Positions 17,756 to 59,510 of a stretch of DNA of 64,000 bases are shown here, piece after piece. Numbering within the stretch: position 1 is the first letter of the stretch; each line of letters begins with the position of its first letter. This DNA is from Spirochaetota bacterium (lineage in GTDB: Bacteria; Spirochaetota; UBA4802; UBA5550), in assembly GCA_036745755.1 (NCBI GenBank), contig DAIOFM010000001.1, positions 13,796 to 77,795 on the forward strand, given 5' to 3'. The position numbers and the translations under genes are program-made. A model generated the notes under the pieces. That model was given only the letters and a program-made list of their open reading frames with translations. It had not been told where the DNA came from and made no database searches.

Positions 17756-17982
17756 TCTACTATCATTCAATCGTTAATTATACAGAACCGACTAAATCAG
17801 TAACAATCACCTGTTTCCGGCGAAATATTTTATAGCGGAAAACTATTTTAAAAAACCCCAAAGTTATTTCATAGAAAATTAAATTCATGTTAATAATCGT
17901 AATGATTCTTAAAAAAAGCTTGCAAAAATTTTATTCTTTTATAATTAAATTAAATCAGTAAATGCAATTACAGGCGGATATA

Positions 17983-18693
17983 ATGGAAACAGTCGCTCAG
18001 GAAAATAATTCAGAGGCCTTTTTTAAAATTTCTTACGGCCTTTATATTGTCAGCTCAGGGATAAAGGGAAAAGAGAACGGGTATATTTCAAATGCGGTCT
18101 TCCAGGTTACTGCTGAACCGGCACAATTTGCTGTATGCTGCAGCAAAAACAATTATACCTCATCAATTATCGAAAAGAGCGGAGCATTCTCCGTCTCTGT
18201 GCTTAAAAAGGATGTGGACCAGTCCCTTATATCGCTGTTCGGTTATAAAAGCGGTAAGGACCTGAACAAATTTGAAAACGTAGCTTATATTAAAGGTATT
18301 ACCAGGTCGCCCATAGTCACTCAGGATTCTCTAGCATGGTTTGAATGCAGGGTAATACAGAAAATTGATGTTGGGACCCATATTCTTTTTACAGGAGAAA
18401 TATTAAACAACAGCCTTCTTGAGGATGGGGAGCCTCTGACTTACTCATACTACAGGGAGGTTCGGAAGGGGAAGGCGCCGGTAAACGCCCCGACCTATAT
18501 TAATCCTGAAAAGAACAAGGAGAAGAAAACAGCTGCAGAAAAGTATAAATGCCTTATATGCGGCTACATATATGATCCGGAAAAAGGTGATCCTGACGGG
18601 AAAGTAAATGCGGAAACGCCTTTCAGTGAACTGCCCGAAACCTGGCAGTGCCCTGTATGCGGAACGGATAAGGGAAACTTTGAAAGGATTTAA
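17983..18693 (+). CDS. Flavin-reductase-domain / rubredoxin fusion (high-molecular-weight rubredoxin, Hrb-like)
   Basis: Flavin_Reduct-like N-domain. C-terminal rubredoxin YKCLICGYIYDPEKGDP…WQCPVCG. Confidence 0.85.
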   Translation: METVAQENNSEAFFKISYGLYIVSSGIKGKENGYISNAVFQVTAEPAQFAVCCSKNNYTSSIIEKSGAFSVSVLKKDVDQSLISLFGYKSGKDLNKFENVAYIKGITRSPIVTQDSLAWFECRVIQKIDVGTHILFTGEILNNSLLEDGEPLTYSYYREVRKGKAPVNAPTYINPEKNKEKKTAAEKYKCLICGYIYDPEKGDPDGKVNAETPFSELPETWQCPVCGTDKGNFERI

Positions 18694-18738
18694 CGGTCTT
18701 TTAAATAATTCAATTATACAAAAAAGGAGAACAATTTA

Positions 18739-19314
18739 ATGGCATCAATAAAAGGGACTAAAACAGAACAGAATCTTTTAAAGGCATTTGCCGGTGAATC
18801 TCAGGCCAGGATGAGGTATAATTATTTCGCAAGCGCTGCGAAAAAAGAGGGGCTTGAACAGATAGCAGCAATGTTTGAAGAGACTGCGCTCAATGAAAAG
18901 GAACATGCAAAACTCTTCTTTAAATATCTTGAAGGGGGGATGGTTGAGATCACTGCTTCATACCCCGCAGGAGTTATAGGTAACACTCTTGAAAACCTGA
19001 AAGCTGCTGCAGACGGAGAACTTGAAGAGTGGGGAGAGCTTTATCCTGAATTCGCGAAAATTGCCGAGGAAGAGGGCTTTAAAGACGTGGCAGCCACATT
19101 CAAGCTGATTGCCACAGTGGAAAAGGCCCATGAAGCGCGCTACAGAAAACTCTACGATAATCTTATGAATGGAAAGATCTTCGAGAAAGACGGAAAGCAG
19201 ATCTGGAAATGCAGAAACTGCGGATATATACATGAAGGGGAGAAGGCCCCCCAGCAGTGTCCTGCGTGTAAACATCCACAGGCATATTTTGAAATTAAGG
19301 AAACAAATTACTGA
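18739..19314 (+). CDS. rbr: Rubrerythrin
   Basis: KGTKTEQNLLKAFAGESQARMRY four-helix diiron domain plus C-terminal CRNCG…CPAC rubredoxin-like centre. AAAGGAG SD. Confidence 0.92.
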   Translation: MASIKGTKTEQNLLKAFAGESQARMRYNYFASAAKKEGLEQIAAMFEETALNEKEHAKLFFKYLEGGMVEITASYPAGVIGNTLENLKAAADGELEEWGELYPEFAKIAEEEGFKDVAATFKLIATVEKAHEARYRKLYDNLMNGKIFEKDGKQIWKCRNCGYIHEGEKAPQQCPACKHPQAYFEIKETNY

Positions 19315-19365
19315 TAAAAAACCTGTATTTTTACCACAACTTTTTTATGGCAAAAATGCTCTATT

Positions 19366-19392
19366 ATCACCGCTGCCGCAGGCGGCGGTGAT
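19366..19392 (+). terminator. Intrinsic terminator after rbr
   Basis: ATCACCGCTGCC-gca-GGCGGCGGTGAT stem (one G·U pair), followed by a weak T-rich run. Confidence 0.55.
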
Positions 19393-19484
19393 ATATCTTT
19401 CTATATAAAAATTCTTCCATGAAGAAAAAACTTTATTTTGTTTAATTCAACTGAATCCGTTATTTTCTCCGGGCCGATTTTGAA

Positions 19485-19513
19485 TTGACAGGTTGTATCT
19501 TTACTTTTATACT
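19485..19513 (+). promoter_or_regulatory. Sigma70-type promoter for the PilZ gene
   Basis: TTGACA (19485-19490), 17-nt spacer, TATACT (19508-19513), about 45 nt upstream of the ATG. Confidence 0.5.
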
Positions 19514-19557
19514 CTCTGAAAACGATGTTAAAGCCCCTGTCCTGATGAGGAAGAAAG

Positions 19558-19914
19558 ATGGATAAAAGAGAATACCCCAGATACGACAAAGACCTTCAGG
19601 TTGATTACGCCTATCAGCAGAAAGTCCCAACAACAGAAGAACATGGAAGGATTCTCAACATAAGCCTTGGAGGGATTTATATGCTCTCAGGCTCAATTCT
19701 TGAAAAGGGGATGGAAATTACACTGACTTTCACAATCAATAAAAACAACAAAATGACTACACTAACCACTACCGGTTCTGTACTGAGATCAGGAAAAATT
19801 TCTGATGAACCGGAAATGTCACAAAAGTATGATATTAAGGCTCCTGAAAACAGATGCTTTGCCGTAATTAAATTTAACGCGCCTTTTATTGAGCTTTCAT
19901 TTATGCTTCACTGA
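19558..19914 (+). CDS. Stand-alone PilZ-domain c-di-GMP receptor
   Basis: RxxxR (REYPR) near the N-terminus and N-x-S-x-x-G (NISLGG). Confidence 0.8.
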   Translation: MDKREYPRYDKDLQVDYAYQQKVPTTEEHGRILNISLGGIYMLSGSILEKGMEITLTFTINKNNKMTTLTTTGSVLRSGKISDEPEMSQKYDIKAPENRCFAVIKFNAPFIELSFMLH

Positions 19915-20999
19915 AACTGAAGAATCAGATCTCCCCAGTTGAATTTTTTTCCGATAAAAAGCTCAATACAGGAATCAACAACTCCCGGTTCATATTTCAC
20001 ACCCCTGTATTTCTTTATCTCCTCAAGAGCACTGTCCAGGCCGGGAGAAATTCTGTAGGGCCTGTTTGTCCCCATTGCCTCAACAACATCCGCAACACAT
20101 AAAATTTTTGCCTCAAGCCTGATCTCATCCCCTTCAAGAGCGAAAGGATATCCGCTTCCATCTATCTTCTCATGGTGTTGAAGCACAATAGACGCAACAG
20201 GCCAGGGAAACTCTATATCTCTGAGAATATCAAATCCCCTCCTGGGATGTGTCCTGATTACGTTTAATTCCTCTTCAGGAAGCTCCCCCGGTTTTGTCAG
20301 AAATTCACTGGGTACATAAATTTTACCGATATCATGCAGAAGTCCCGCGACCCTTATTCCCTCAACTGTATGCTCATCAAGCCCCATGTTCGCGGCTATG
20401 GCACTTGCAAGCTTTGCAACTCTCTGCTGGTGGCCCGAGGTATACGGGTCCCTAAGCTCAAGGGCATATGTCAGTGAATTGACAGTCTGAAGAAAAAGCC
20501 TTTTAGCAAGATCCGAACTCTCGTTAAACTGTTTTGTCCTTATTGCCACTTTCTCCTCAAGCTCCCTGTTTATCATGTCCAGGTCCCGGTTCTTGTCTAT
20601 AAGCTCATGCTGCAGAAGCTGTATCTCATTTCTGCTCTGCTGTAGAGAATGGTAAAAAAGCGTCTCATTGGTAACGTTCCTTATGACAACTATTGCGGGA
20701 AAACCCCTGTAGCTGTGACTGAGGAAATAGAGGTTAAAAAAAATATCAAACTCGCTGCTTCTGTTTATTCTTCTTATACTGAATTCCTTCTTCTCCCCTT
20801 TGATAACTCTCATTATCTCCGGTTCAAGGCCTATTGCCTCATTAAAAAAATCAGTAAGGTACACATCGCGCAGAGAGGGCTTTACAGAGAGGAAATCGCA
20901 TATGCTGTCATTTTCAAAATGGAGAACCAGTTCACTGTCTATCATGCCGTAATAGAGACCGAACCTGTTAAAGAGCGACAGTGCGAAGCTGTTATTCAT
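19908..20999 (-). CDS. HD-GYP c-di-GMP phosphodiesterase with N-terminal PAS-like sensor domain
   Basis: HDIGKI … HHEKIDGSGYP. N-terminal about 120 aa paralogous to the N-terminus of the PP2C gene at 21558-23120. Confidence 0.9.
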   Translation of the reverse strand: MNNSFALSLFNRFGLYYGMIDSELVLHFENDSICDFLSVKPSLRDVYLTDFFNEAIGLEPEIMRVIKGEKKEFSIRRINRSSEFDIFFNLYFLSHSYRGFPAIVVIRNVTNETLFYHSLQQSRNEIQLLQHELIDKNRDLDMINRELEEKVAIRTKQFNESSDLAKRLFLQTVNSLTYALELRDPYTSGHQQRVAKLASAIAANMGLDEHTVEGIRVAGLLHDIGKIYVPSEFLTKPGELPEEELNVIRTHPRRGFDILRDIEFPWPVASIVLQHHEKIDGSGYPFALEGDEIRLEAKILCVADVVEAMGTNRPYRISPGLDSALEEIKKYRGVKYEPGVVDSCIELFIGKKFNWGDLILQFQ

Positions 21000-21525
21000 C
21001 TGGATTACCCCTTAAAATCAATTCAGCAAGGGATTTAAAAAGTTCATTAACATTCTCCCCGCTCCTGGCGCTTGTAAAAAAAACTTCAGGCGTCCCGCTG
21101 TTTTTTTCACTGAAAATACCGCTCTTCAGGTACGCCTCCCTGTCATCACCCTTTTTCAGCAGGTCAACCTTGTTCAGCGCAATTACAATTCCCGCCCCGC
21201 TGTTCATAGAGTGAATCATGTCAATATGACTTTTTATATTTTCAACCGAATCTCTCCGGTTAATGTCGGCAACAATTATTCCCCCGGACGCACCGCGGAG
21301 ATATTCAGGTGATATTGCTGTAAACCTGTCGCTCCCGGCAATGTCCCAGAGGAGCATCGAGACTTCTCTTTTTTCCAGGGAGAGATCCTTTTTTGTAACT
21401 TTTACCCCTATTGTAGTAAGATAGGAATCGCTGAACTCATCATAAACAAAGCGGCGGACCAGGCTTGTTTTACCAACAGCAAAATCACCAAGCATCACAA
21501 TCTTCCATTTATAACCATCTGTCAT
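20992..21525 (-). CDS. Ras-superfamily small GTPase (Rab-like)
   Basis: G1 GDFAVGKTS, switch I YLTTIGV, G3 WDIAGSDRF, G4 LNKVD, G5 TSARSG. AAGGGAG SD. Confidence 0.9.
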   Translation of the reverse strand: MTDGYKWKIVMLGDFAVGKTSLVRRFVYDEFSDSYLTTIGVKVTKKDLSLEKREVSMLLWDIAGSDRFTAISPEYLRGASGGIIVADINRRDSVENIKSHIDMIHSMNSGAGIVIALNKVDLLKKGDDREAYLKSGIFSEKNSGTPEVFFTSARSGENVNELFKSLAELILRGNPDE

Positions 21526-21557
21526 CAGCAGCTCCCTTTTATCTTTTTTACCTTACA

Positions 21558-23120
21558 CTAATTTATATAAAAACCAAGGAGAAGGATATCATCCTCCTGC
21601 CTGTTCTCCCCCCTGAATAATATAACTTCATCAATCACCGATTTCACCGTTTCTTTTAAGGTTTTTTTTCGCGCCCGTTTAAAAAGCTCAAGAAGGGAAT
21701 CGTCAAAGCCTATTATGCTGCCGTTTATGTCGGATGTTGACGGGATCCCGTCAGTATAGAGAAAGAGCATGTCCCCCGGATCCAGTTCAATTCTGAACTC
21801 ATCAAATTTCTGTTCCTCAAAGATGCCTATGACAGCGTTGTTCCCTCCCGCAAAAAAAACCTCCCCGCTTCTTTTCATTATTACAGGATGGGGGTGACCG
21901 CCGTTGGCGAAACGGAATTCCATCTTCTCCCCGTGAACGATAGAACCGGCAATTGCTGAAAAAAAATAGAACATCGTATTTCCTTTGAAATACTCCCTGT
22001 TTATAAGGCTTAAATATTCCGAAGGGGCAATCCAGTTCCACTGATCAAGGTTTTCGGTAAAATACTTTATAAGAGAGAGAAAAAGCGCTGAAGCCACACC
22101 ATGCCCTGTTATATCACAGACAAAGACCCCGGTAAAACCGTCAAAGGAGACTACCGAGTAGTAATCACCTCCTATCTGCTCAAGGGGGAGATATGAACAT
22201 TCTATCTCAACCCCCTCTGTTTCAGGAAACTCCTTCTGGATCAGTGTATCAACAGCCTTCCTGGCAATGAGAAGGTTGTTTTCCATTATCTCAATCTTCT
22301 GGCTCAGGGCATTTTTACTTAAAGCAAGATCGGTCAGGGCGGTTCTCAGCTGCTCCTCCATTACTTTTCTTTCTGTTATATCAACAATCGCACTGACAAT
22401 TACCCTGCTATTTATATCCGGGCCGAAAAAGATCGATTTACTGATCATCACATGCCTCTCTTCCCCTTTTCCGTCACTGATGCCTGCCTCATAACTCCTG
22501 ATTCCGCCGGATTTCAAAAGCTCATCATCAAAGCGCAATAACTCCGCACCCCTAGCAGTTATAAAATTAATATCACTCCCTATTATATCCGATCTGCTTT
22601 TTGAGGTAAACTCCTCAAATCCCCTGTTGCAACCCAGGCAGATTCCTTTTGAATCCCTGTAGAAGATCGGGGCCGGTATTGTATCAAGAAGGGTATTTAT
22701 GAACTCCTCCCTCTTTACAAGCTCAAGGTTTTTTAAAACCACCTCGTTTCTTCTCTGCTGAGCCTCCCGGAACGAAATGCTGTTTTCAGTAATATCCTCA
22801 ACAACAACATACGAGTATCCGCTCCCTTTAATGTCTGAAAAAAAATGAAGGTTAAAAAAGATCTCCTCCCCGGCTGTCCTGTTTATCCTTCTTATCGATA
22901 CGCTTTCCCTCTCACCCTTTATAACTTCAATAATTTCATTTTCAATCCCTATAACCTCGGGGAAAAGTTCCTGAAGCGATACTTCATTCTCCATGCAGAT
23001 TCCGCATGCAAGGTATTCAACAAGCCTGCTGTCAGGAAATTTTACATTCAGGGAGAGATCCGTTACAGCGTAAAAAATTCCGAACCTGCTGCTTATAATG
23101 TTGCTTAATCCCCGTTCCAT
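21558..23120 (-). CDS. PAS-like + PAS + SpoIIE/PP2C-type serine phosphatase
   Basis: Central PAS (…VSAIVDITERK). C-terminal PP2C motifs GGDYY, DITGHG, LYTDGI. N-terminal domain shared with the HD-GYP protein. Confidence 0.85.
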   Translation of the reverse strand: MERGLSNIISSRFGIFYAVTDLSLNVKFPDSRLVEYLACGICMENEVSLQELFPEVIGIENEIIEVIKGERESVSIRRINRTAGEEIFFNLHFFSDIKGSGYSYVVVEDITENSISFREAQQRRNEVVLKNLELVKREEFINTLLDTIPAPIFYRDSKGICLGCNRGFEEFTSKSRSDIIGSDINFITARGAELLRFDDELLKSGGIRSYEAGISDGKGEERHVMISKSIFFGPDINSRVIVSAIVDITERKVMEEQLRTALTDLALSKNALSQKIEIMENNLLIARKAVDTLIQKEFPETEGVEIECSYLPLEQIGGDYYSVVSFDGFTGVFVCDITGHGVASALFLSLIKYFTENLDQWNWIAPSEYLSLINREYFKGNTMFYFFSAIAGSIVHGEKMEFRFANGGHPHPVIMKRSGEVFFAGGNNAVIGIFEEQKFDEFRIELDPGDMLFLYTDGIPSTSDINGSIIGFDDSLLELFKRARKKTLKETVKSVIDEVILFRGENRQEDDILLLGFYIN

Positions 23121-23124
23121 TTAA

Positions 23125-24891
23125 TTAATCATTTTTTAGTGTAGGGAAGAGCATTATTCCTCTTCGGTCTGAAAATCCCGCGTACCTGGGATCAGCGGAA
23201 ATCACATCGGGATTGAACCCGGTCAGATGGATTCTCTCTCTTTCAATTCCCAGGGACTCAAGGGAGGAGGCGACCCCCCTCATCCTCCCCTCCGCCAGCC
23301 TTTTATTTACTTCAAATCCCCCGGCCGGATCATTGAAAGCAATAATATCAAGATGTATCCCGGGATACCCCTTTACTATTTCGTATACTCTTCTGGCCTG
23401 AAGGTTCTGGCTGTTCCCCATCCTGTCAACGCCTGTGGGAAACTGGATGACAATCTTCTCAAGTTCCTGTCTTATAAGAAGGAGCTGGAGATCCTCGAAT
23501 TTTTTCTCAAGTTCCAGAAAGTTTTTATGGTACTTTTCAGCTGTCCTGAAATCAGCGAGTACCGTTTTGTTTTCCACATCCTTAATCCCGGGAAGGGAGG
23601 ATGCTATTTCCGCCAGGTTTTCTGAAACTTCAGGAGTGCTCACAAGCCCGGTAAGAAGCAACCTGCTCCCCTCCGCATCAGCCTTTACATCAAAGGAATA
23701 CCTGGGAAGTTTATCCGCCTCAGCATAAAATTTCTTTTCAAGCCGGCAGTCATCTATTTCAGACTTTACGGCAAAACCTGCCAGCAGCAGTAAAGCAACC
23801 AGCAGAACTCCGACAGCGAACTTCAGTTTCCTGAAATTCCTGTTCACCCCCTGCCCCGGAACAATCACCATGTTTATCCTTGAAATAAAATTCTCCAGCA
23901 TCGGGTTCATACCCTCAAGGCCGTACATAGATCCGTCAAATTTCTTCAGTTTCATTCTGAATGTTTCATGAATGTCACTGTCAAGGGATGCGCTCTCTGT
24001 TATGAAATCCATTCCCGGCGCCCCCTGCACAACATAGGCACTGTAGAAAAAAGGTGTCTCCTGGATTAGAATCCTGGAATCCCCGAACTCAATCCCGTTA
24101 AGGGAGGCCCCCCCCTCCTCCCCCTTCTTCTTTTTTTTAAAAGAGGTACGGACAAAATCCATTATGGCTGAAAGCATTGCCACAACAATATCCCTGTCGC
24201 TCTCCGCATCCCCATGCCTTGAAGCGTGCCCTATAAGGAGTGAACTTTTCTTTTCAATAACCAGCACCTCGTCAACAACGCATGCCAGGCTCTCCTTCAG
24301 TATCACCTCCCCGACGGGAAGACCTGTTCTGAAAGCTATATACCTGAAGCGCCACATCTTCCCGCTAAGAGCGGATTCAAGCCTGTCATTGACGTAATTT
24401 ACAAGGGCGCGAAATGCCTCGGAGATCCTGGCGGCAATAAGCCTCCCCACAAGAGGAGAGATCCGTTCAAATAGATCACCCGAAGGAACATAGTCCATCC
24501 TTTTCATATATGAGACGTCCTCTTCGAGATGCTTGATCTTCCTGGCATTAACATAGGCAAGGACGATCTCCTCAATGGTCTCCTCTATTTCATTAAAGGA
24601 TATATGTACGAATTTCCCGGCAGGTTTATAATCAATTATCCTGTACCTGTGAAGGGTATTAATGCTCTGGTAAACCTCCATTGATGAAAGGTCTGTAGCC
24701 TCTGCTATGAGGTTGTAGTGGGTCTTAATATCTGTTTTACTCTGGTTGGTCAGTTCAAGCAGCACACCAAGGACAACCGAGTCCTTCTCGTCCAGTGAGT
24801 GTTTCTTTACAAAATGCCGCAATATCGGATTATCAAATGTTATGCTCTTCTTAAGAATTGATACCTCTTTACCGATCTCTCCCTTTTTCAT
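23125..24891 (-). CDS. Membrane protein: wHTH-like N-terminus, Roadblock/LC7-like middle, one TM, BON-like and OmpA_C-like periplasmic end
   Basis: TM FAVGVLLVALLLLAGFAV (nt about 23768-23820). BON-like …LLLTGLVSTPEVSENLAEIASSLPGIKDVENKTV. OmpA-like …NKRLAEGRMRGVASSLESLGI. Roadblock call is pattern-based (nt about 24008-24293). ATG 24891 has a GGAAGG SD; the tracked TTG 24945 does not. Confidence 0.7.
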   Translation of the reverse strand: MKKGEIGKEVSILKKSITFDNPILRHFVKKHSLDEKDSVVLGVLLELTNQSKTDIKTHYNLIAEATDLSSMEVYQSINTLHRYRIIDYKPAGKFVHISFNEIEETIEEIVLAYVNARKIKHLEEDVSYMKRMDYVPSGDLFERISPLVGRLIAARISEAFRALVNYVNDRLESALSGKMWRFRYIAFRTGLPVGEVILKESLACVVDEVLVIEKKSSLLIGHASRHGDAESDRDIVVAMLSAIMDFVRTSFKKKKKGEEGGASLNGIEFGDSRILIQETPFFYSAYVVQGAPGMDFITESASLDSDIHETFRMKLKKFDGSMYGLEGMNPMLENFISRINMVIVPGQGVNRNFRKLKFAVGVLLVALLLLAGFAVKSEIDDCRLEKKFYAEADKLPRYSFDVKADAEGSRLLLTGLVSTPEVSENLAEIASSLPGIKDVENKTVLADFRTAEKYHKNFLELEKKFEDLQLLLIRQELEKIVIQFPTGVDRMGNSQNLQARRVYEIVKGYPGIHLDIIAFNDPAGGFEVNKRLAEGRMRGVASSLESLGIERERIHLTGFNPDVISADPRYAGFSDRRGIMLFPTLKND

Positions 24892-24944
24892 CCCGACCTT
24901 CCGGTTTAAAAAAATTTTGTAAAACTTCTCCTCAGGTATATTCA

Positions 24945-24973
24945 AATTTACACTTTAAAAGCAGGTGAGTCAA
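24945..24973 (-). promoter_or_regulatory. Putative sigma70 promoter of the GTPase operon
   Basis: Minus strand TTGACT (24973-24968), 17-nt spacer, TAAATT (24950-24945). The implied TSS lies downstream of the tracked TTG, supporting the ATG at 24891. Confidence 0.35.
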
Positions 24974-25043
24974 GTCATATCACTTCATTAAATTAATATA
25001 CCTCCGGGCTTTAGCGCACCGGCACAGGAATTTCTTTGTTGAC

Positions 25044-25071
25044 AAAAATAGTTTTGTATAAAACTATTTTT
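25044..25071. promoter_or_regulatory. Perfect 28-bp palindrome, candidate MarR operator
   Basis: AAAAATAGTTTT-GTAT-AAAACTATTTTT (12-bp arms), abutting TTGACA at 25039-25044, upstream of marR. Confidence 0.5.
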
Positions 25072-25098
25072 TTATTAACTTATAAAGAACAGGGAAAA

Positions 25099-25551
25099 AT
25101 GATGACGATCAACAGTGATAATTTTCTTTACGCAATCTCAAAAATCCGGCAGAACCTTTTTTCCTTTCTTGAAAGAGAGATGGCAGAAAAAAAAATCAGC
25201 GACATATCCCCTTCAGACGGAGATATCCTCTTCGCAATCGACCGTAACGGCCCACTCTCCCTGCAGGAGCTTGCGGCACTGACAATGAAGGACAAGTCAA
25301 CAGTATCATCGGTAGTAAAAAAACTCGAAAAAAAAGGCTACCTTACAAAAGAAAAGGGGGCGGAAGACGGGCGTCTTTTGAAAATTTCACTCACGCCCAG
25401 GGCCCTGAAAAGAAAAGCGGTACTCTGGAAAATATCTTTCTCGATGAATGAAAGGATCTTCACCGGACTGACTGACGAAGAGAAGACGAAACTTTTTGAA
25501 ATTATGGAAAAAATTTACAAAAACCTTAAACCGGGAGAAAGTTATGATTGA
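25099..25551 (+). CDS. MarR-family transcriptional regulator
   Basis: Winged helix …LSLQELAALTMKDKSTVSSVVKKLEKKGYLTKEK…DGR. ATG 25099 preferred, since the tracked start lies inside the promoter/palindrome. Confidence 0.85.
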   Translation: MMTINSDNFLYAISKIRQNLFSFLEREMAEKKISDISPSDGDILFAIDRNGPLSLQELAALTMKDKSTVSSVVKKLEKKGYLTKEKGAEDGRLLKISLTPRALKRKAVLWKISFSMNERIFTGLTDEEKTKLFEIMEKIYKNLKPGESYD

Positions 25552-26350
25552 AGTCAACGATTTCGGTAAAGTGACTCAGATCAGGCTTAGCAGGGAACTC
25601 AACGGAAACGCTGTTTACTGGGTATCATCCTATCTCGTTGACGGCCTCCTTATAGATACCGGGAGCGATCATACCTCGGATGAACTTGTTTCTTTCCTCA
25701 AAACGCGTAAAATAAAACAGGCCGTAAATACTCACTACCATGAAGATCACATAGGGGGTAACAAAAAAATCAGGGAAACCTTCGGGATAGATATCTATGC
25801 TCACAGGGATTCTGTTCCTCTGATAAATTCAAAACCGGAACTCTATCCATATCAGGAAATTGCATTCGGTTACCCTGAACCCTCTGAGGTGAAAATCATT
25901 CCGGATACAATTGAAACCGGTAAATATAAATTCAGGGTAATAGAGACCCCGGGCCACAGCAGGGGGCACGTGGTACTCATGGAGATGTCAGAAGGATGGT
26001 GCTTTTCAGGCGATATATTCGTCAGGGAAAACATTAAATATATCCGTCCCGAGGAGAATATCGGTGAACAGATTGAGTCTATGAAGATGCTCTACTCTCT
26101 ACCCTCTGAAAAACTTGTTTTATTTACAGCAACAGGGAGAGTTATTGAGGATGGGAGAAAGTCCCTGAATGAATGTGTTGAAAATCTCAATGCACTGGGG
26201 AAAAAAGTCAGGGAGATGTCCGGAAAGGGAAAATCCCCTGAAGAGATAATGACAGCCCTTTTCGGAGGGGAACACTCTTTTTCGCAGTTAACCAACGGGC
26301 AGTTCTCAACACTTAACCTGGTTAAATCTATCCTTGAAGTCAGTCTTTAA
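25544..26350 (+). CDS. MBL-fold metallo-hydrolase
   Basis: HYHEDHIGG motif, TPGHSRGH. GGAGAAAG SD. 8-nt overlap with marR. Confidence 0.85.
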   Translation: MIEVNDFGKVTQIRLSRELNGNAVYWVSSYLVDGLLIDTGSDHTSDELVSFLKTRKIKQAVNTHYHEDHIGGNKKIRETFGIDIYAHRDSVPLINSKPELYPYQEIAFGYPEPSEVKIIPDTIETGKYKFRVIETPGHSRGHVVLMEMSEGWCFSGDIFVRENIKYIRPEENIGEQIESMKMLYSLPSEKLVLFTATGRVIEDGRKSLNECVENLNALGKKVREMSGKGKSPEEIMTALFGGEHSFSQLTNGQFSTLNLVKSILEVSL

Positions 26351-28076: not shown

Positions 28077-30836
28077 TCAACTGTTTACACCTATAAATTC
28101 CTTCAGCTCTTTCATAGGTATAGGCCGGCTTATCAGATAACCCTGGGCAATATCACACCCGGAATTTTTCAAAAATTCAAGCTGCGACTCCTTCTCAACG
28201 CCTTCAGCTACAACTTCGATCCCCACCCTGCGGGACATCGCAATTATCGATTCAGTAATATGGGCGTCATTCCTGTTGTTATCCAGTTCCCGGATAAAAC
28301 TGGCATCAATTTTAAGAGTATGAATCGGCAGGTTTTTTAACTGGGAAAGGGAGGAGTAACCTGTACCGAAATCATCCAGTGTAATTGAGATCCCGGTTTC
28401 AAGAAGCATATACAGAATAGCCCTGCTCGCCTCTATATCTCTCATGATTGAAGTTTCAGTTATCTCAAGTTCAAACCATTCCGGCCTGAAGTTATATCTG
28501 GAAAGGGCATTGCTGATTACATCAGGAAGCCCCTTATAATGAAGGGACTTTGCTGAACAGTTAAGTGCAAGCCTGAGAGAAACCATCCCTGAATTAATTA
28601 GCTCCCCTGCCTCCCTCAGTGCCTTATGCATTACCAGGCGGTCAATTTCCGATATAAGGCCTATCTCCTCGGCAAGAGGTATAAATTCACCCGGGCTTAC
28701 TATCCCGTGGGCATGTTTCCACCTCACCAGCCCCTCCATACCCATAATGCTGCCGCTTCTTATATCCAGCTTGGGCTGATAATAAACTTCGAAATTTGAA
28801 TCATTAATGGCCTGCCTTAATTCATTCTCCAGTTTAAGCTTTCTGGCCACGCTTTCGTTAAGGGAGGGCTTGAAAAGAGCAAAGGTCTGCCTCCCCTCGT
28901 CCTTTGCCCTGTACATCGCAGCGTCCGCGTTCTTTATCAGGCTGTCAGACTCCTCGCCATCCTCGGGATACATTGCAATACCGATACTGGCCCCGACATG
29001 AAGGTTATTCCCCTTTATCTGGAAGGGTTCCCTGAATGCCTGAATAATCCTCCTTGAAAGAACAACCGAGGGTTTCTCATCGGAAATGTCCTCCACAAGA
29101 ATTATGAACTCATCCCCGCCAAGCCGGGCAACGGTATCGTCATTTCTTGCAAGACGCCTCAGCCTGTCAGCCGCGTCTTTAAGAAGGATGTCCCCCACAG
29201 CATGCCCGAGGCTGTCGTTTATAACCTTGAAATTATCGAGATCGAGAAAAATCACACCAAACCTGTTTTTATGCCTTGCTGAATGGGCTATCGCCTTATC
29301 GATCCTGCTTTTGAGAAGAATCCTGTTGGGAAGACCGGTAAGGGCGTCATGATATGCCTGGTATTTAATCAGCTCCTCCTGCCTTTTGATATCGCTTATA
29401 TCATGGAAAATGCCGACAAAATGCGTAATCTTTCCGGAAAGGTCCCTGATTGCGCTGATCGAAAGCCATTCAGGATAGGCCTTCCCGTCCTTATGCCTGT
29501 TCCATATTTCACTGGACCAGTGCCCTGTTGCAAGAAGGGCCTTCCACATCCCGTCAAAATAGAAGGAGTCGTGAAGGTCGGATTTCAATATCCTCGGGTT
29601 CTCCCCTTTGACCTCATCCTGAGTATATCCTGTAATACTTGTAAATGCCGGGTTTACGCTTAAAATTTTTGACTCCGCATCTGTTATAATTATTCCTTCC
29701 AGTGAGTACTCAAATATCTGGCGCATCAGTACCAGCTCCAGGTTAACGGTTGTCAGAGCCGATGTTCTCTCAGCAACCTTGACCTCAAGACTGCTGTTCG
29801 CTTTTACAAGCATATCAAGAATTGAATTAAAAGAACTCCCCAGTATCTGGAATTCATCGGTATTACCACCGGGAAGTCTCTTTGTAAAATCCCGGTTTCT
29901 TGTAATCTCGTCAGCCCGGAATGTGAGAAGCTCCATCGGGTTTAATACACTCTTTTTGAGAAAGAGAATAACAAGAACAACAAGGATAATTGATAAAGCG
30001 GCAACAAGGAGGAGAGTGAATTTAACGGTCTGAACCCCTATCCCTTTCATGTCCCGATGATGATTAAGGAGAGTCAATGCTACGGGATTCCCGCAAAGAT
30101 CTTTAATAACTGAATATATCTTTATAACGTCCCTTTCTATTTCATATGAATATTTTATTTTACCGTCCCGTTTATTGTCAGGATAATCAGTAAATGAAAT
30201 ACCCGCTTGTTCAGGGGAAAAAATAGCAATATTAACTTTAAGCATAGATGAAATCCTCGCGACTTCATCACTGCTTAAAAACCTTCCCATAATTATTTTT
30301 CCATCAGGAGGGGCCTTCATAATACTGTCACTAACAGGCCTTGATGAAAGCATAATGTAACCGAGATATGTACTGACTATTCCCTTCTCCACTTTCAGAT
30401 CTTTCTGCGAAAAAATTATACTGTTCATTGCAGTACCCTCTGCAGAAAGCCTGTTAAAATCGGCACTTTTATAATTATCAGGATTATAAATTGCCTTATA
30501 GATTATTTTTCCTTTAAGATTAACAAGACATATCAGATGAACCCTCTGTGTTTTCAGATAGGGAACGTTGAAATTGTCCCGCACATAACCCTTATCATAT
30601 CTTTTTACAAAATTATATGTATCATCCCAGAAGGCGTAATCCTTACAGTAACTGTCAACCGCTTCAATCTCCCTGTGCAGAACACCCAGGACTCTTTCCA
30701 TATCCTTTTCAGCATTCTGAATTTCGGTCTCCCTGAATTTCATGTTAATATACACCCATAACAGGGATGACATGAGAAACATCCCGGCCAGCATCAATAG
30801 CGAAATAGAGAGGAGTGTTTTTTTCGTAAGGCTCAT
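28077..30836 (-). CDS. CHASE4-HAMP-PAS-GGDEF-EAL signalling protein
   Basis: Periplasmic YAFWDDTYNFV (CHASE4-like), PAS. I-site RNDD 5 aa before RLGGDEF. EAL-domain motifs YYQPK, EGLVRW, ELEITE, DDFGTGYSS, KIDASF, AEGVE, QGY. Confidence 0.9.
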   Translation of the reverse strand: MSLTKKTLLSISLLMLAGMFLMSSLLWVYINMKFRETEIQNAEKDMERVLGVLHREIEAVDSYCKDYAFWDDTYNFVKRYDKGYVRDNFNVPYLKTQRVHLICLVNLKGKIIYKAIYNPDNYKSADFNRLSAEGTAMNSIIFSQKDLKVEKGIVSTYLGYIMLSSRPVSDSIMKAPPDGKIIMGRFLSSDEVARISSMLKVNIAIFSPEQAGISFTDYPDNKRDGKIKYSYEIERDVIKIYSVIKDLCGNPVALTLLNHHRDMKGIGVQTVKFTLLLVAALSIILVVLVILFLKKSVLNPMELLTFRADEITRNRDFTKRLPGGNTDEFQILGSSFNSILDMLVKANSSLEVKVAERTSALTTVNLELVLMRQIFEYSLEGIIITDAESKILSVNPAFTSITGYTQDEVKGENPRILKSDLHDSFYFDGMWKALLATGHWSSEIWNRHKDGKAYPEWLSISAIRDLSGKITHFVGIFHDISDIKRQEELIKYQAYHDALTGLPNRILLKSRIDKAIAHSARHKNRFGVIFLDLDNFKVINDSLGHAVGDILLKDAADRLRRLARNDDTVARLGGDEFIILVEDISDEKPSVVLSRRIIQAFREPFQIKGNNLHVGASIGIAMYPEDGEESDSLIKNADAAMYRAKDEGRQTFALFKPSLNESVARKLKLENELRQAINDSNFEVYYQPKLDIRSGSIMGMEGLVRWKHAHGIVSPGEFIPLAEEIGLISEIDRLVMHKALREAGELINSGMVSLRLALNCSAKSLHYKGLPDVISNALSRYNFRPEWFELEITETSIMRDIEASRAILYMLLETGISITLDDFGTGYSSLSQLKNLPIHTLKIDASFIRELDNNRNDAHITESIIAMSRRVGIEVVAEGVEKESQLEFLKNSGCDIAQGYLISRPIPMKELKEFIGVNS

Positions 30837-53791: not shown

Positions 53792-54895
53792 TCATTGTTT
53801 AATTGAAAAAATCTCTTTTTCAAGATAATAAAGAATCTCGTTTCTCAATTTCTGAAGGAGATCGTATTTCATGTTTCTCAGATAATAAAATTCAATTATC
53901 TTGCTCACCCTGTATATAAAATCAATAATCTCAGAATAAGACATTCTGTCAGGACCGAAATCCAGTAAACCGGCACTTTCAAAGTATAATTTATATTCCC
54001 TGAAAGCACCCCTTATCTCTTCATAGGAATCATATATATCTTTTGTTATTCTACCTTCTTCAAGTTTTGATTTCAGGGAATCGCTTATAAAATTAAGCCG
54101 GAAAAGCTTGCCGTCATTTTCATTATAATAATATTTTAAAAATGAATAATAAGAAGTAAGCTGTTTCTTATATTCAAAACCAGCTTTTACTATTTTATTA
54201 AATTCAGCTATTTTAACAACATGGTTCGATCCATCAAGATATTCCTTGACCGCGAATTCATTCATTCTCCAGCCCAACTGATTCGAACTTTTCTGAAATA
54301 AAGACTTTATTTCATCATTGTATTCGGAAAACTTCCCTACAAGTTTTTCAGTATTCCTGTACCCGGAAAGAATTTTAACAAAATCAGCTAGTATATTTTT
54401 AACGTCTTTCTCAAAAGTAAAATTCCGTTTATAAAAAAATCTGCTGTAAGAACCAAGAATATAATAAAAATCACTGACCGAACGTTTAGCAAGTGTAAGC
54501 ATAAGATATTTAAAATTCAGAAGTTCCCCATCTATTTCAAGAATAAGGCTGTTAAGTGAATCTATGGTTTCATCAATCTCCTGTTCATCAACCGTTTTCT
54601 GCTGCATAACGGCTATAATTTTATTTTCTATATCAGTTATATAAAAAAGATAAAGACTTTCAAGTTTGAGTTCCCAGGATTTCTTTTTTTTAATATCATT
54701 CAGTCTAACTTTAATATCCTCATTCAATTTTGTTCCTTCAGCCGGGATATAGTTTTCCCAGTCTTCAGGAATTTTTAAAAATTTACCCAGAATATTTTTA
54801 TCCTCATTCCTTATTACAAACCTGTAATAATTCATCTTTACCTGAAAAAACTTCTCTTCAAGTTCTCTTATATAAGATCTTCCCGAGTCCGGCAT
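53792..54895 (-). CDS. Hypothetical helical cytosolic protein
   Basis: 367-aa ORF, K/E/Y/F-rich with no recognisable motif. Abuts the TPR gene stop with zero gap. Confidence 0.5.
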   Translation of the reverse strand: MPDSGRSYIRELEEKFFQVKMNYYRFVIRNEDKNILGKFLKIPEDWENYIPAEGTKLNEDIKVRLNDIKKKKSWELKLESLYLFYITDIENKIIAVMQQKTVDEQEIDETIDSLNSLILEIDGELLNFKYLMLTLAKRSVSDFYYILGSYSRFFYKRNFTFEKDVKNILADFVKILSGYRNTEKLVGKFSEYNDEIKSLFQKSSNQLGWRMNEFAVKEYLDGSNHVVKIAEFNKIVKAGFEYKKQLTSYYSFLKYYYNENDGKLFRLNFISDSLKSKLEEGRITKDIYDSYEEIRGAFREYKLYFESAGLLDFGPDRMSYSEIIDFIYRVSKIIEFYYLRNMKYDLLQKLRNEILYYLEKEIFSIKQ

Positions 54896-55344
54896 ATCCT
54901 TAACCTGTTTTTTTAATTAATTGTGTTAAAAATCACCGTAAATGTTATTAAAAAATTATTAACAGGATTCACAATGATATTAACAGAATCTTTAAGTTAT
55001 AAACATCTTATACCAATATTATCAATACATTTTCACTTTTTTAGAAATCCTATGACCATCATTTAATTAATTTGTTGCCAAAAACGCTTTCTAAAACTAC
55101 ATAATTAATCCGGTCATCTAACCGGAAATTTTTATACAAAAAATATCCAAATTAATCTTTTACAATATTTCTGCTTTAATGATTTTCCATTAAACAGTTT
55201 TTATAGAAAACTGATATTTAAAGATTTGTGAATTGAAATATTCATTTTTAAATGTATGATTTCGTGATAAAAGATATTATGGAAAGTTGTCGTATTTATA
55301 AACAATCTTATTAACAATTGTTGATAACATAATGAGGTATAATC
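54896..55344. other. Candidate oriC segment upstream of dnaA
   Basis: 449-bp very AT-rich non-coding region. TTAT(A/T)AACA at 54956, 54997, 55296 and 55308. Other 7/9 matches to TTATCCACA (TTATCAATA, ATATCCAAA). Confidence 0.5.
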
Positions 55345-58052: not shown

Positions 58053-58054
58053 TA

Positions 58055-59155: not shown

Positions 59156-59168
59156 TCAGGAAAAAAAT

Positions 59169-59509: not shown

Positions 59510-59510
<1 letters not shown>
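59169..59510 (+). CDS. DUF721/DciA-family protein
   Basis: LRERWPEYVGNILSTHSFPDRIFSNILFIRVDHSVYANEL matches the DUF721 pattern. Classic recF-gyrB location. TTG start. Confidence 0.72.

What the first reader, a model, noticed from the sequence alone, without database searches (positions are those of the whole stretch)
19558..24973. Small Rab/Ras-like GTPase operon wired to an envelope-anchored Roadblock-like protein, a PP2C phosphatase and c-di-GMP turnover
Four tightly packed minus-strand genes (4-nt gap, 32-nt gap, 8-nt overlap) form the cluster. (i) An approx. 590-aa protein that I read as a winged-helix-like N-terminus, a central Roadblock/LC7 (MglB-like) segment, one TM helix, and a periplasmic BON-like plus OmpA_C-like peptidoglycan-binding end. 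The Roadblock reading rests on the pattern VLVIEKKSSLLIGHASRHGDAESDRDIVVAMLSAIMDFV…LNGIEFGDSRILIQETPFFYSAYVVQG. (ii) A PAS-PAS-SpoIIE/PP2C phosphatase. (iii) A 177-aa GTPase with complete G1-G5 boxes and a Rab-like switch I. (iv) A PAS-like HD-GYP phosphodiesterase. A stand-alone PilZ gene converges on the operon end and overlaps it. A MarR gene with a perfect palindromic operator candidate diverges from its start. Roadblock + small-GTPase pairs are established (MglA/MglB). The actinobacterial conservons CvnA-D likewise combine a membrane sensor, a Roadblock protein, an HTH protein and a GTPase. I know of no characterised system where such a pair is fused to an OmpA/BON envelope anchor and co-transcribed with PP2C and HD-GYP outputs. 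Hypothesis: an envelope-state sensor whose GTPase switch gates c-di-GMP degradation and Ser/Thr dephosphorylation.
Basis: partly seen in the sequence, partly recalled or inferred. Interest (0 to 1): 0.75.

Follow-up and report, generated by a model that had tools for sequence, protein, structure and literature searches.

The report
Envelope-anchored Ras-like GTPase signalling operon
This spirochaete operon is a variant of the little-studied "Group 1 Rup" bacterial Ras-like GTPase system, and its membrane partner is predicted to carry the same Roadblock/longin fold that regulates small GTPases in eukaryotes and in Myxococcus.

Summary
Four tightly packed minus-strand genes encode, in order:
- a 588-aa protein: winged helix, long helices, Roadblock/longin-like core, one TM helix, BON-like and OmpA-like domains;
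- a PAS-like/PAS/SpoIIE phosphatase;
- a 177-aa Ras-family GTPase;
- a PAS-like HD-GYP phosphodiesterase.

A PilZ gene converges on the operon end.

The Roadblock reading is supported by fold only. Two AlphaFold models give an α-β-β-α-β-β-β core, and Foldseek hits are Roadblock/longin proteins. Pfam and an MglB comparison give no sequence match.

The system is not unprecedented. It fits the "Group 1 Rup" module described computationally by Wuichet & Søgaard-Andersen (2015):
- a GTPase lacking the catalytic Gln;
- an unknown-domain + TM + OmpA partner;
- output enzymes whose N-terminal region carries an invariant Gln.

I found the partner gene with a GTPase gene in 39 of 41 loci across several phyla. 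The partner domain has 5,436 representative clusters.

Differences in the spirochaete version:
- no separate coiled-coil gene;
- an added winged-helix N-terminus on the partner;
- HD-GYP and PP2C outputs together.

MarR and its palindrome are not conserved neighbours. The mechanism is inferred, not shown. Verdict: new variant of a known but uncharacterised kind.

The parts
23125..24891 (-). Partner protein of the GTPase (588 aa from the ATG at 24891; the ORF extends to a TTG at 24945). Order of parts: winged helix, long helices, Roadblock/longin-like core, TM helix, BON-like, OmpA-like.
   Evidence: ORF. Homologues are 582-590 aa. Alignment A1. AF2 models. Fold hits. The family has 5,436 representative clusters.
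24595..24828 (-). N-terminal winged helix-turn-helix (residues 22-99). It is specific to the spirochaete clade.
   Evidence: AF2 pattern H-H-E-H-H-E-E with pLDDT 84-95. Foldseek hits to SlyA, MepR, SmtB, CadC and HpaR. Relatives outside the Spirochaetota instead begin with an LRxLLLG-type motif.
23944..24315 (-). Roadblock/longin-like core (residues 193-316): α1-β1-β2-α2-β3-β4-β5-α3. The signature DxDxxxxMLSAIxDFxxxSF lies on α2.
   Evidence: pLDDT above 90 over much of the core in the deeper model; all 50 top hits are Roadblock/longin proteins. Mon1-Ccz1 E 5.6e-4, AP sigma, LAMTOR, Rag CTD, dynein LC7. Sequence bridge: the archaeal L042 protein matches this core (hhalign 98.5%, E 2e-15) and weakly matches Pfam Robl_LC7 (E 0.0073).
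23770..23832 (-). Single transmembrane helix (residues 354-374), preceded by the basic stretch RNFRKLK. This implies a cytoplasmic N-terminus and a periplasmic C-terminus.
   Evidence: Sequence. Helix 354-374 in the model.
23203..23697 (-). Periplasmic BON-like segment (about residues 399-444) followed by a divergent OmpA-like peptidoglycan-binding domain (about residues 449-563). It carries the motif NDPAGGFEVNKRLAEGRMRGV.
   Evidence: BON 23.9-24 bits, below the Pfam cut-off. BON found in 6 of 20 and OmpA in 17 of 20 homologues. NCBIfam OmpA-like hits E 2e-8 to 1e-3. Asp and Arg of the OmpA motif are invariant, and the Arg is at least 90% conserved in 132 diverse relatives.
21558..23120 (-). 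Output 1 (520 aa): shared PAS-like N-terminal domain (residues 1-~140, nt 22701-23120; conserved Gln122 at 22755-22757), then PAS (136-258), then a SpoIIE/PP2C phosphatase (330-515).
   Evidence: PP2C metal-binding motifs DITGHG, TDG and EDD are seen in the sequence.
20992..21525 (-). Rup-type (Group 1 Rup / Rup1-like) small GTPase, 177 aa. Motifs: G1 GDFAVGKT, switch I YLTTIGV, G3 DIAGS (no catalytic Gln), G4 NKVD, G5 SAR.
   Evidence: Pfam Ras 1e-33. Alignment with H-Ras and 40 partner-linked GTPases. An identical protein in NCBI is named 'Rab family GTPase [Spirochaetota bacterium]'.
19908..20999 (-). Output 2 (363 aa): shared PAS-like N-terminal domain (residues 1-~140, nt 20580-20999; nearly invariant Gln121 at 20637-20639), then an HD-GYP c-di-GMP phosphodiesterase domain (179-339).
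   Evidence: HD_5 6e-36. The N-terminal domain is paralogous to that of output 1. Q121 is at least 90% conserved in 36 outputs and in 24 N-terminal domains.
19558..19914 (+). Stand-alone PilZ c-di-GMP receptor that converges on and overlaps the operon end. It is a likely accessory, not a core part.
   Evidence: Pfam PilZ 1.6e-6. RxxxR and NxSxxG motifs are present. The same convergent neighbour occurs in L007, L011 and L013 but not in other spirochaete loci.

Best explanation
**What it is (shown or strongly supported)**
- A Spirochaetota version of the Group 1 Rup (Rup1) small-GTPase signalling module.
- The large protein sits in the inner membrane.
- Its OmpA-like/BON-like end lies in the periplasm, where it probably contacts peptidoglycan.
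- Its cytoplasmic part presents a Roadblock/longin-fold platform.
- The Rup GTPase has canonical nucleotide-binding motifs but lacks the catalytic glutamine. It also carries Phe at the Ras Gly12 position.
- Two enzymes are encoded with it: an HD-GYP c-di-GMP phosphodiesterase and a SpoIIE-type PP2C phosphatase. They share one paralogous PAS-like N-terminal domain that ends in a conserved DIT...QQxRNE linker.

**How it most likely works (inferred)**
1. The Roadblock-like platform, probably as a dimer, binds the GTPase at the membrane.
2. It sets the GTPase's nucleotide state in response to the state of the envelope, acting as exchange factor, anchor or co-GAP.
3. GTP-bound Rup docks on the shared N-terminal domain of the two enzymes and switches their activity. 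This changes the c-di-GMP level, which the adjacent PilZ protein may read, and Ser/Thr dephosphorylation.
4. The conserved Gln of the N-terminal domain may be inserted into the GTPase active site. The effector would then also time the switch off. Established precedents are the TBC RabGAP Gln finger and the Rap1GAP Asn thumb.

**Confidence by part**
- Identity as a Rup1-type module: about 0.9.
- Roadblock/longin fold of the partner: about 0.8.
- The signalling mechanism above: about 0.4.
For: **Module membership**
- None of 41 partner-linked GTPases has Gln at the Ras Q61 position (Ser in 12, Glu in 9). Phe occupies the Ras Gly12 position in 25 of 41.
- The partner gene has a small GTPase gene in the same locus in 39 of 41 loci. 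It lies immediately downstream, or one output gene further. The loci come from Spirochaetota, Gammaproteobacteria, Bacteroidales, Helicobacteraceae and Chloroflexota.
- Genes next to these GTPases encode proteins with GGDEF (13, of which EAL 11), HD-GYP (12), SpoIIE (5) or histidine-kinase (4) domains.
- The outputs' N-terminal regions align with a nearly invariant Gln. hhalign between spirochaete and other N-terminal domains gives E 1.2e-4.
- The published description of the Group 1 Rup neighbourhood matches (PMC4316618).

**Partner fold**
- Two independent AF2 models (pLDDT 69.6 and 79.0) give an α-β-β-α-β-β-β core.
- Foldseek hits are Rag CTD, LAMTOR, dynein LC7, Asgard Roadblock, AP sigma, Sec22b and Mon1-Ccz1.
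- An archaeal relative of the core weakly hits Pfam Robl_LC7.

**Topology and anchor**
- One TM helix.
- The OmpA motif Asp and Arg are conserved.

**Shared effector domain**
- 37% identity, E 1e-23 between the two window enzymes.
- PAS_4 hits in 3 of 24 members.

**Enzymes**
- Both look catalytically competent from their motifs.
Against: - No interaction, nucleotide-state or enzymatic data exist for any Group 1 Rup system (PMC4316618). No later paper on Group 1 Rup systems turned up in the library searched.
- The Roadblock assignment rests on predicted structure. Foldseek E-values are modest (5.6e-4 to 2e-2) and TM-scores normalised to the target are 0.4-0.64. Pfam, PDB-sequence HMM and MglB hhalign comparisons are negative.
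- The conserved Gln sits about 10 residues after a PAS-type DIT motif, in what looks like a signalling helix. It could be structural rather than catalytic. One relative (L031) has Asn there.
- The coiled-coil protein conserved in other phyla is missing here. The spirochaete module may therefore work differently.
- The window protein's own OmpA and BON matches are below curated thresholds.
- Homology of the N-terminal domain across phyla is weakly supported (hhalign probability 55%).
Confidence: 0.7

Rival explanations
1. Same module, different division of labour. The Roadblock-like domain is the GTPase-activating protein, as MglB is for MglA and MfpD for MfpB. The N-terminal domain of the enzymes is a pure effector (PAS-like sensor plus signalling helix). 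Its conserved Gln would then be structural.
For: Bacterial Roadblock proteins with known activity on small GTPases are GAPs that work without a catalytic finger (MglB and MfpD; PMC13015309). The Gln lies in a helix just after a PAS-type DIT motif. L031 has Asn at this position.
Against: MglA keeps its own catalytic Gln, so MglB-type GAPs need not supply one. These GTPases have no Gln at all, so some residue is probably supplied in trans. The core shows no sequence similarity to MglB. Its best fold hits include GEF-type longin and Roadblock proteins such as Mon1-Ccz1 and Ragulator.
Confidence: 0.3
2. In the spirochaete clade the partner is foremost a membrane-tethered transcription factor of the ToxR/CadC kind: a winged helix, a TM helix and a periplasmic sensor. 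The GTPase and enzymes would be modulators or co-regulated genes.
For: A confident MarR/SlyA-like winged helix sits at the N-terminus. It replaces the coiled-coil partner and N-terminal motif seen in other phyla.
Against: The winged helix is confined to one clade. The Roadblock-like core, TM helix, OmpA domain and GTPase pairing are conserved across phyla. No conserved operator was found. The only palindrome belongs to the non-conserved MarR gene. Winged helices also serve as protein-protein modules.
Confidence: 0.1
3. An MglA/MglB-type polarity or motility switch, or a conservon homologue.
For: It has a small GTPase plus a Roadblock-fold partner. Wuichet & Søgaard-Andersen also drew the conservon analogy.
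Against: The GTPase has a canonical DxxG G3 and Rab-like switch I, unlike MglA. It has 38-49% identical relatives in Chloroflexota and other MAGs. Two such GTPases, both encoded beside a histidine kinase, are followed by Group-1-Rup-type neighbourhoods. There are no Pfam Robl_LC7, DUF742 or CvnA-type kinase matches. hhalign against MglB finds nothing. In the 2015 survey, 0 of 121 Rup genes were coupled to MglB.
Confidence: 0.05
4. The genes are neighbours by chance, or the cluster is an anti-phage defence island.
For: MarR and MBL next door are not conserved, which shows local gene flux.
Against: The partner-GTPase-output order recurs in several phyla, often with overlapping stop and start codons. 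PADLOC finds only a generic HD similarity. The locus sits among housekeeping genes about 30 kb from dnaA.
Confidence: 0.02

Closest known systems
Group 1 Rup (Rup1) gene neighbourhood (Wuichet & Søgaard-Andersen 2015, Genome Biol Evol; PMC4316618)
   Same: A Ras/Rab-like GTPase without the G3 Gln. An adjacent protein with a conserved uncharacterised domain, one TM helix and a C-terminal OmpA domain. A signalling enzyme whose N-terminal region carries an invariant Gln. c-di-GMP turnover as an output.
   Different: Spirochaetota were not among the taxa listed. There is no separate coiled-coil gene. The partner gains a winged-helix N-terminus. Two outputs occur in one operon, and they are HD-GYP and PP2C rather than GGDEF/EAL or histidine kinase. 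The 2015 paper left the partner domain unassigned and reported no Rup-Roadblock coupling.
MglA/MglB (Myxococcus, Thermus) and the actinobacterial conservon / Mfp system (CvnB/MfpD Roadblock GAP with CvnD/MfpB GTPase)
   Same: A small Ras-superfamily GTPase is encoded next to a Roadblock-fold regulator. The output is signal transduction rather than translation.
   Different: The GTPase here is Rup-type, not MglA-type. The Roadblock-like domain has no detectable sequence similarity to MglB or PF03259. It is embedded in a 588-aa membrane protein. There is no CvnA kinase-like sensor and no CvnC/DUF742.
Eukaryotic Roadblock/longin GTPase regulators (Ragulator-Rag, Mon1-Ccz1, TRAPP, AP sigma subunits)
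   Same: These are the best structural matches of the core. They are membrane-associated platforms that bind Ras/Rab/Arf/Rag-type GTPases.
   Different: There is no sequence similarity. The bacterial domain is fused to a peptidoglycan-binding anchor. Whether it acts as GEF, GAP or scaffold is unknown.
TBC RabGAP Gln finger and Rap1GAP Asn thumb (catalytic residue supplied in trans; from established knowledge, not tested here)
   Same: A GTPase lacking a usable cis-Gln is paired with a partner that carries an invariant Gln or Asn.
   Different: The candidate Gln here sits in a PAS-like domain and linker that is unrelated to TBC or RapGAP folds. No arginine finger has been identified.
OmpA-C/MotB/Pal-type peptidoglycan anchors, and ToxR-like membrane-bound winged-helix regulators
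   Same: A single-pass inner-membrane protein with a periplasmic OmpA-like domain that keeps the conserved Asp and Arg. As in ToxR-like regulators, the cytoplasmic winged helix is N-terminal to the TM helix.
   Different: The Roadblock-like GTPase platform lies between the two. The OmpA domain is divergent: the window protein itself is below the Pfam threshold.

Membership tests
Group 1 Rup (Rup1) system | Small Ras-like GTPase with canonical G1-G5 but no catalytic Gln in G3 | tested here: met
   G3 is DIAGS. 0 of 41 partner-linked GTPases have Gln at the Ras Q61 position. G1, switch I Thr, NKxD and SAK/SAR are present.
Group 1 Rup (Rup1) system | [quoted passage not shown] | tested here: met
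   The central module is homologous to that of Chloroflexota, gammaproteobacterial, Bacteroidales and Helicobacteraceae partners. Those carry OmpA or SH3_3 at the C-terminus. OmpA is found in 17 of 20 close homologues.
Group 1 Rup (Rup1) system | Output signalling protein whose N-terminal region carries an invariant Gln | tested here: met
   Both enzymes share the domain. Q121 is at least 90% conserved in 36 outputs and in 24 N-terminal domains. Cross-phylum homology is weak (hhalign E 1.2e-4, probability 55%).
Group 1 Rup (Rup1) system | Conserved cytoplasmic coiled-coil protein encoded in the neighbourhood | tested here: not met
   It lies upstream of the partner gene in 24 of the 25 non-spirochaete bacterial loci with a recovered partner ORF; L029 has too little upstream sequence. 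It is absent from all spirochaete loci and from the whole 64-kb window (HMM search).
Group 1 Rup (Rup1) system | GTPase falls in the Rup1 clade in a phylogeny with reference sequences | not tested
   No reference Rup1 sequences were available. Indirect evidence only: 45% identity to Chloroflexota GTPases that sit in four-gene Rup-type neighbourhoods.
MglA/MglB module | MglA-type GTPase and a partner that is a sequence-level member of Roadblock/LC7 (PF03259) | tested here: not met
   G3 is a canonical DxxG and switch I is Rab-like. There is no PF03259 hit on the window protein. hhalign of the 43-sequence profile against M. xanthus MglB (sequence verified against 6h5b_B) finds nothing.
Roadblock/longin fold superfamily | α-β-β-α-β-β-β sandwich with structural matches to known members | tested here: met
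   Topology in two AF2 models. Foldseek: 50 of 50 top hits and about half of the hits are Roadblock/longin proteins, with probability 0.97-1.0, E 5.6e-4 to 2e-2 and target-normalised TM 0.4-0.64. This rests on a prediction, not a solved structure.
Roadblock/longin fold superfamily | Dimerisation and direct binding or regulation of a GTPase | not testable with these tools
   This needs multimer modelling with access to interface scores, or biochemistry.
Actinobacterial conservon (CvnA-D) | Histidine-kinase-like CvnA, Roadblock CvnB, DUF742 CvnC and MglA-type CvnD | tested here: not met
   None of the four proteins matches a histidine-kinase (HisKA/HATPase_c) domain or DUF742. The GTPase is not MglA-type.
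HD-GYP phosphodiesterase / SpoIIE-PP2C phosphatase / PilZ receptor | Family HMM above threshold and catalytic or ligand-binding motifs | tested here: met
   HD_5 124 bits, SpoIIE 116 bits and PilZ 28.8 bits are all above their cut-offs. Motifs HD, HHE..DGSGYP, DITGHG, TDG, EDD, REYPR and NISLGG are read. Activity was not tested.
OmpA-like peptidoglycan-binding domain | PF00691 match with the conserved Asp and Arg of the binding motif | tested here: inconclusive
   The window protein has no PF00691 hit at E 0.01 and only weak NCBIfam hits. 17 of 20 homologues match. The NDxxGG...NxxLAxxRM motif is conserved.

The most novel reading that the evidence does not exclude
The conserved, never-assigned partner domain of bacterial Rup1 GTPases is a Roadblock/longin-fold platform. 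Rup1 GTPases are reported to cluster with eukaryotic Rab/Ras/Rho/Ran and Asgard RasL GTPases.

If so, pairing of Ras/Rab-like switches with Roadblock/longin regulators at a membrane is ancient, not a eukaryotic or MglA-specific invention.

In this module the platform would be wired to a peptidoglycan-binding anchor, so the GTPase would report cell-envelope state. Interchangeable enzymes (HD-GYP, PP2C, GGDEF/EAL, histidine kinase) would plug in through one shared PAS-like domain. That domain would act as both effector and Gln-finger GAP.
Probability: 0.35. Interest if true: 0.8.

Novelty: new variant of a known kind. Interest (0 to 1): 0.55.

Why it matters
- Rup1 GTPases cluster with eukaryotic Rab/Ras/Rho/Ran GTPases in published analyses. 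No member has been characterised experimentally (PMC4316618).
- The partner family is large: 5,436 clusters at 50% identity. It has no Pfam model.
- A Roadblock/longin fold for the partner would put both prokaryotic small-GTPase families under one regulatory logic. It would also bear on the origin of the eukaryotic GTPase-longin/Roadblock machinery.
- The spirochaete operon is a compact test case. It has no coiled-coil subunit and two readily assayable enzymes: c-di-GMP hydrolysis and phosphatase.
- It could be used to ask how a bacterial Ras-like switch couples the envelope to second-messenger signalling.

Tried and rejected
**Searches that found nothing useful**
- Profile HMM searches of the central module, the N-terminal winged helix and the enzymes' N-terminal domain against PDB sequences gave only chance hits.
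- The archaeal L042 protein against PDB sequences gave nothing.
- hhalign of the partner profile against MglB gave no similarity.
- PADLOC returned only generic HD/Cas3-HD similarity, so a defence-system reading was rejected.
- Rfam found no RNA family in the window, so there is no riboswitch.
- Promoter and terminator scans over 19300-25300 gave counts no higher than shuffled controls and are uninformative.
- Literature searches for later work on Rup1 systems, or on the fold of the partner, found none in the held library.

**Calls that failed or were wasted**
The domain's PAS-like nature therefore rests on weak Pfam PAS_4 hits and the DIT motif.
- The Pfam scan of 132 diverse partner proteins exceeded the residue limit. 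I used the alignment consensus instead.

**Hypotheses tested and dropped**
- A coiled-coil partner elsewhere in the window: none found.
- The ~220-aa genes lying divergent from the partner gene in L001 and L002 as candidate coiled-coil proteins: they are unrelated secreted proteins.
- MarR and MBL as part of the system: rejected, because they are absent from every related locus.

Full report
**1. What is in the sequence**

- PilZ, 19558-19914 (+).
- HD-GYP protein, 19908-20999 (-, 363 aa).
- GTPase, 20992-21525 (-, 177 aa).
- PAS/SpoIIE protein, 21558-23120 (-, 520 aa).
- A large protein, 23125-24945 (-).

The spacings are also as stated: a 4-nt gap, a 32-nt gap, an 8-nt overlap, and a 7-nt convergent overlap with PilZ. 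Homologues of the large protein are 582-590 aa. Its real start is therefore probably the ATG at 24891, giving 588 aa.

Pfam and NCBIfam confirm most domain calls:
- PilZ, E 1.6e-6.
- HD_5/HD-GYP, 6e-36.
- Ras family, 1e-33.
- SpoIIE, 2e-33, with a PAS domain at residues 136-258.
- MarR and a metallo-β-lactamase-fold protein on the other side of the cluster.

The large protein gives only a sub-threshold BON hit (23.9 bits against a cut-off of 27) and weak OmpA-like NCBIfam hits. Nothing covers its first 400 residues. Among 20 homologues, OmpA (PF00691) is found in 17 and BON in 6. The OmpA-type motif NDxxGG...NxxLAxxRM is conserved.

Catalytic and ligand motifs are intact in the sequences:
- HD-GYP: HD and HHE..DGSGYP.
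- PP2C: DITGHG, TDG, EDD.
- PilZ: REYPR and NISLGG.

**2. The Roadblock question**

Sequence methods do not see Roadblock:
- No Pfam PF03259 hit.
- No PDB-sequence hit for a profile of the central region.
- No hhalign similarity between a 43-sequence profile and M. xanthus MglB. The MglB sequence was checked against 6h5b_B.

Structure prediction does see it.
- A first AF2 model of residues ~125-360 used 12 sequences and reached pLDDT 69.6.
- A second model of residues 1-375 used 43 sequences, including 27 diverse relatives. It reached pLDDT 79.0, with values above 90 over much of the core.
- Both give α1-β1-β2-α2-β3-β4-β5-α3 at residues 193-316.
These include RagA/C C-terminal domains, LAMTOR subunits, dynein LC7/Roadblock, Asgard Roadblock proteins, AP sigma subunits, Sec22b, Ykt6 and Mon1-Ccz1.
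- The second model returned the same class (Mon1-Ccz1 5ldd_B, E 5.6e-4), interleaved with MarR/SlyA/MepR/SmtB winged-helix regulators.
- The winged-helix hits match the confident H-H-E-H-H-E-E element at residues 22-99.
- E-values are modest (5.6e-4 to 2e-2). Target-normalised TM-scores are 0.4-0.64.

One sequence bridge exists. A 209-aa archaeal membrane protein (L042) is clearly homologous to the core (hhalign 98.5%, E 2e-15). It weakly matches Pfam Robl_LC7 (E 0.0073).

I conclude that the Roadblock/longin fold is well supported. Membership of the MglB/LC7 sequence family is not.

**3. Conservation of the neighbourhood**

Close homologues of the large protein occur only in Spirochaetota/Leptospirales metagenome-assembled genomes (MAGs). 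The window's GTPase is identical to an NCBI protein named "Rab family GTPase [Spirochaetota bacterium]".

A profile of the central module finds a very large family: 5,436 clusters at 50% identity with E ≤ 1e-3, and 1,586 with E ≤ 1e-30.

A scan of species-representative genomes gave 38 loci. They come from Spirochaetota, Gammaproteobacteria (Alteromonas, Thalassotalea, Colwellia, Kangiellaceae and others), Bacteroidales, Helicobacteraceae, an alphaproteobacterium and one Thermoplasmata archaeon.

I ran HMMs built here over all ORFs of 43 sequences: 42 fetched loci plus the window region.
- The partner ORF was recovered in 41 of them.
- It has a small GTPase gene in the same locus in 39 of the 41. 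The GTPase gene lies immediately downstream, or one output gene further.
- That is 37 of 39 after removing two duplicate loci.
- The exceptions are a truncated contig (L005) and the archaeal locus (L042).

Chloroflexota loci reached through GTPase homologues show the same order, with an SH3_3 end instead of OmpA and a histidine-kinase output.

Outside the Spirochaetota the order is a 150-210-aa coiled-coil protein, then the partner, then the GTPase, then an output. The coiled-coil protein has an N-terminal LRxIxFG motif and a C-terminal SSKTDRKTLAKLL motif. The spirochaete loci lack it, and an HMM for it finds nothing in the 64-kb window.

The spirochaete loci vary in outputs:
- partner, PP2C, GTPase, HD-GYP (the window, L007, L011);
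- partner, GTPase, HD-GYP;
- partner, GTPase, PP2C;
- one form with a stand-alone 156-aa N-terminal-domain gene.

**4. The GTPase and the shared effector domain**

I aligned the window GTPase with H-Ras and 40 other partner-linked GTPases.
- It has G1 GDFAVGKT, switch I YLTTIGV, G3 DIAGS, G4 NKVD and G5 SAR.
- None of the 41 has Gln at the Ras Q61 position (Ser 12, Glu 9, Ile 5, Asn 4 and others).
- Phe occupies the Ras Gly12 position in 25 of 41.

The two window enzymes share a paralogous N-terminal domain of about 125 aa (37% identity, E 1e-23).

I aligned 36 output proteins from all phyla.
- One glutamine is at least 90% conserved: Q121 of the HD-GYP protein and Q122 of the PP2C protein, in LQQSRNE and AQQRRNE.
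- It lies about ten residues after a PAS-type D(I/V)T motif.
- Three of 24 N-terminal domains weakly match Pfam PAS_4, the best at 1.4e-4.
- Cross-phylum homology of the domain is weak (hhalign E 1.2e-4, probability 55%).

Domains found in the 36 outputs:

| Output domain | Number of proteins |
|---|---|
| GGDEF | 13 (11 also with EAL) |
| HD-GYP | 12 |
| SpoIIE | 5 |
| Histidine kinase | 4 |

**5. Comparison with what is known**

These features match, point for point, the "Group 1 Rup" neighbourhood described computationally by Wuichet & Søgaard-Andersen (PMC4316618). That neighbourhood has four parts:
- a Rup GTPase lacking the G3 glutamine;
- a coiled-coil protein;
- a GGDEF/EAL or histidine-kinase output whose N-terminal region has an invariant Gln, which the authors proposed to act in trans.

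Those authors compared the arrangement with the conservon. They stated that no Rup member had been characterised, and that 0 of 121 Rup genes were coupled to MglB homologues. Later papers in the held library only use Rup1 as a phylogenetic group close to Rab/Ras/Rho/Ran and Asgard RasL. I found no follow-up on the partner.

It is correct that none has been characterised.

What is different or new here:
- The phylum.
- The missing coiled-coil gene.
- The winged-helix N-terminus on the partner.
- Two outputs (HD-GYP and PP2C) in one operon.
- The structural assignment of the partner's unknown domain to the Roadblock/longin fold.

**6. Mechanism**

Shown or strongly supported:
- Membrane topology.
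- Fold assignments.
- Conserved gene coupling.
- Absence of the cis-Gln.
- A shared effector domain with a conserved Gln.
- Catalytically competent-looking outputs.

Inferred:
- The periplasmic OmpA/BON part senses or anchors to peptidoglycan.
- The Roadblock-like platform binds the GTPase and sets its nucleotide state.
- Rup-GTP engages the shared N-terminal domain to control HD-GYP and PP2C activity.
- The conserved Gln may complete the GTPase active site. Precedents from established knowledge are the TBC RabGAP Gln finger and the Rap1GAP Asn thumb.

The main rival is that the Roadblock-like domain is the GAP, as MglB and MfpD are, and that the Gln is structural. None of this can be decided with the tools at hand.

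**7. Neighbours**

- PilZ is a convergent neighbour in three relatives whose partner modules are 51-79% identical to the window's over the matched segment (L007, L011, L013). It is absent from other spirochaete loci. I treat it as a plausible accessory reader of the c-di-GMP output.
- MarR and the MBL gene are absent from every related locus.
- In L007 the permease homologue that lies beyond MarR and MBL in the window directly precedes the partner gene.
- The perfect 12+12 palindrome (25044-25071) lies about 30 nt upstream of the MarR ATG at 25100 and overlaps a TTGACA. It is most simply MarR's own operator, not a control element of the GTPase operon.

**8. Verdict**

This is a new variant of a known but experimentally untouched kind of system.

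The useful added insight is that the conserved partner of Rup1 GTPases is predicted to have a Roadblock/longin fold. Interest is moderate to high for specialists in bacterial small GTPases and c-di-GMP signalling. It is tempered by prior description of the module and by the lack of any functional data.

Noticed in passing
window 53800-61700: dnaA (55345-56688) and gyrB (59748-61664) lie here, with two ORFs of 374 and 366 aa between them that I did not identify. G+C drops to about 31%, and cumulative GC skew reaches its minimum at about 54-56 kb. The chromosomal replication origin is probably in the 54.9-55.3 kb intergenic region, about 30 kb from the GTPase operon.
   Followed up: partly
window 28077-30836 (-): A 919-aa CHASE4-PAS-GGDEF-EAL protein is encoded about 3 kb from the operon. 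It is a second c-di-GMP-turnover enzyme in the neighbourhood.
   Followed up: no
L001 9808-10278 and L014 9436-9906: A stand-alone 156-aa gene lies between the partner and the GTPase. It consists only of the shared PAS-like N-terminal domain (with QQRKNE) and ends in an odd hydrophobic tail. It is either a truncated PP2C output or a free regulatory subunit.
   Followed up: partly
L024 6256-6804 (-) and L025 2585-3133 (-): Two gammaproteobacterial MAG loci carry a second small GTPase of the same family (182 aa). It is divergently oriented upstream of the coiled-coil/partner/GTPase/output cluster.
   Followed up: no
L042 5619-6248 (Thermoplasmata archaeon MAG): A 209-aa archaeal membrane protein consists of TM helices plus the Roadblock-like core and has no adjacent GTPase. 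It is the only relative that touches Pfam Robl_LC7 (E 0.0073).
   Followed up: partly
P0166 (representative library): A 2,171-aa protein contains three separate stretches that match the partner's central module. This suggests tandem Roadblock-like modules in one polypeptide.
   Followed up: no
window 20992-21525 and 40 related GTPases: Phe occupies the Ras Gly12 position in 25 of 41 partner-linked GTPases (G1 GDFAVGKT). In Ras, any side chain at this position blocks GAP-assisted hydrolysis. This hints at an unusual catalytic geometry.
   Followed up: partly
window 25036-26350 (+): A MarR gene (likely start ATG 25100) is followed by a metallo-β-lactamase-fold gene. A perfect 12-nt inverted repeat (25044-25071) overlaps a TTGACA. 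The pair is absent from all related loci, so it is a local insertion between the permease gene and the GTPase operon.
   Followed up: yes
window 17962-19393 (+): A flavin reductase-rubredoxin fusion is followed by rubrerythrin. After them comes a strong terminator-like hairpin (19365-19393, 13 pairs) just upstream of PilZ. Rubrerythrin keeps the same position relative to the operon in L007 and L013, which is consistent with an anaerobic lifestyle.
   Followed up: no
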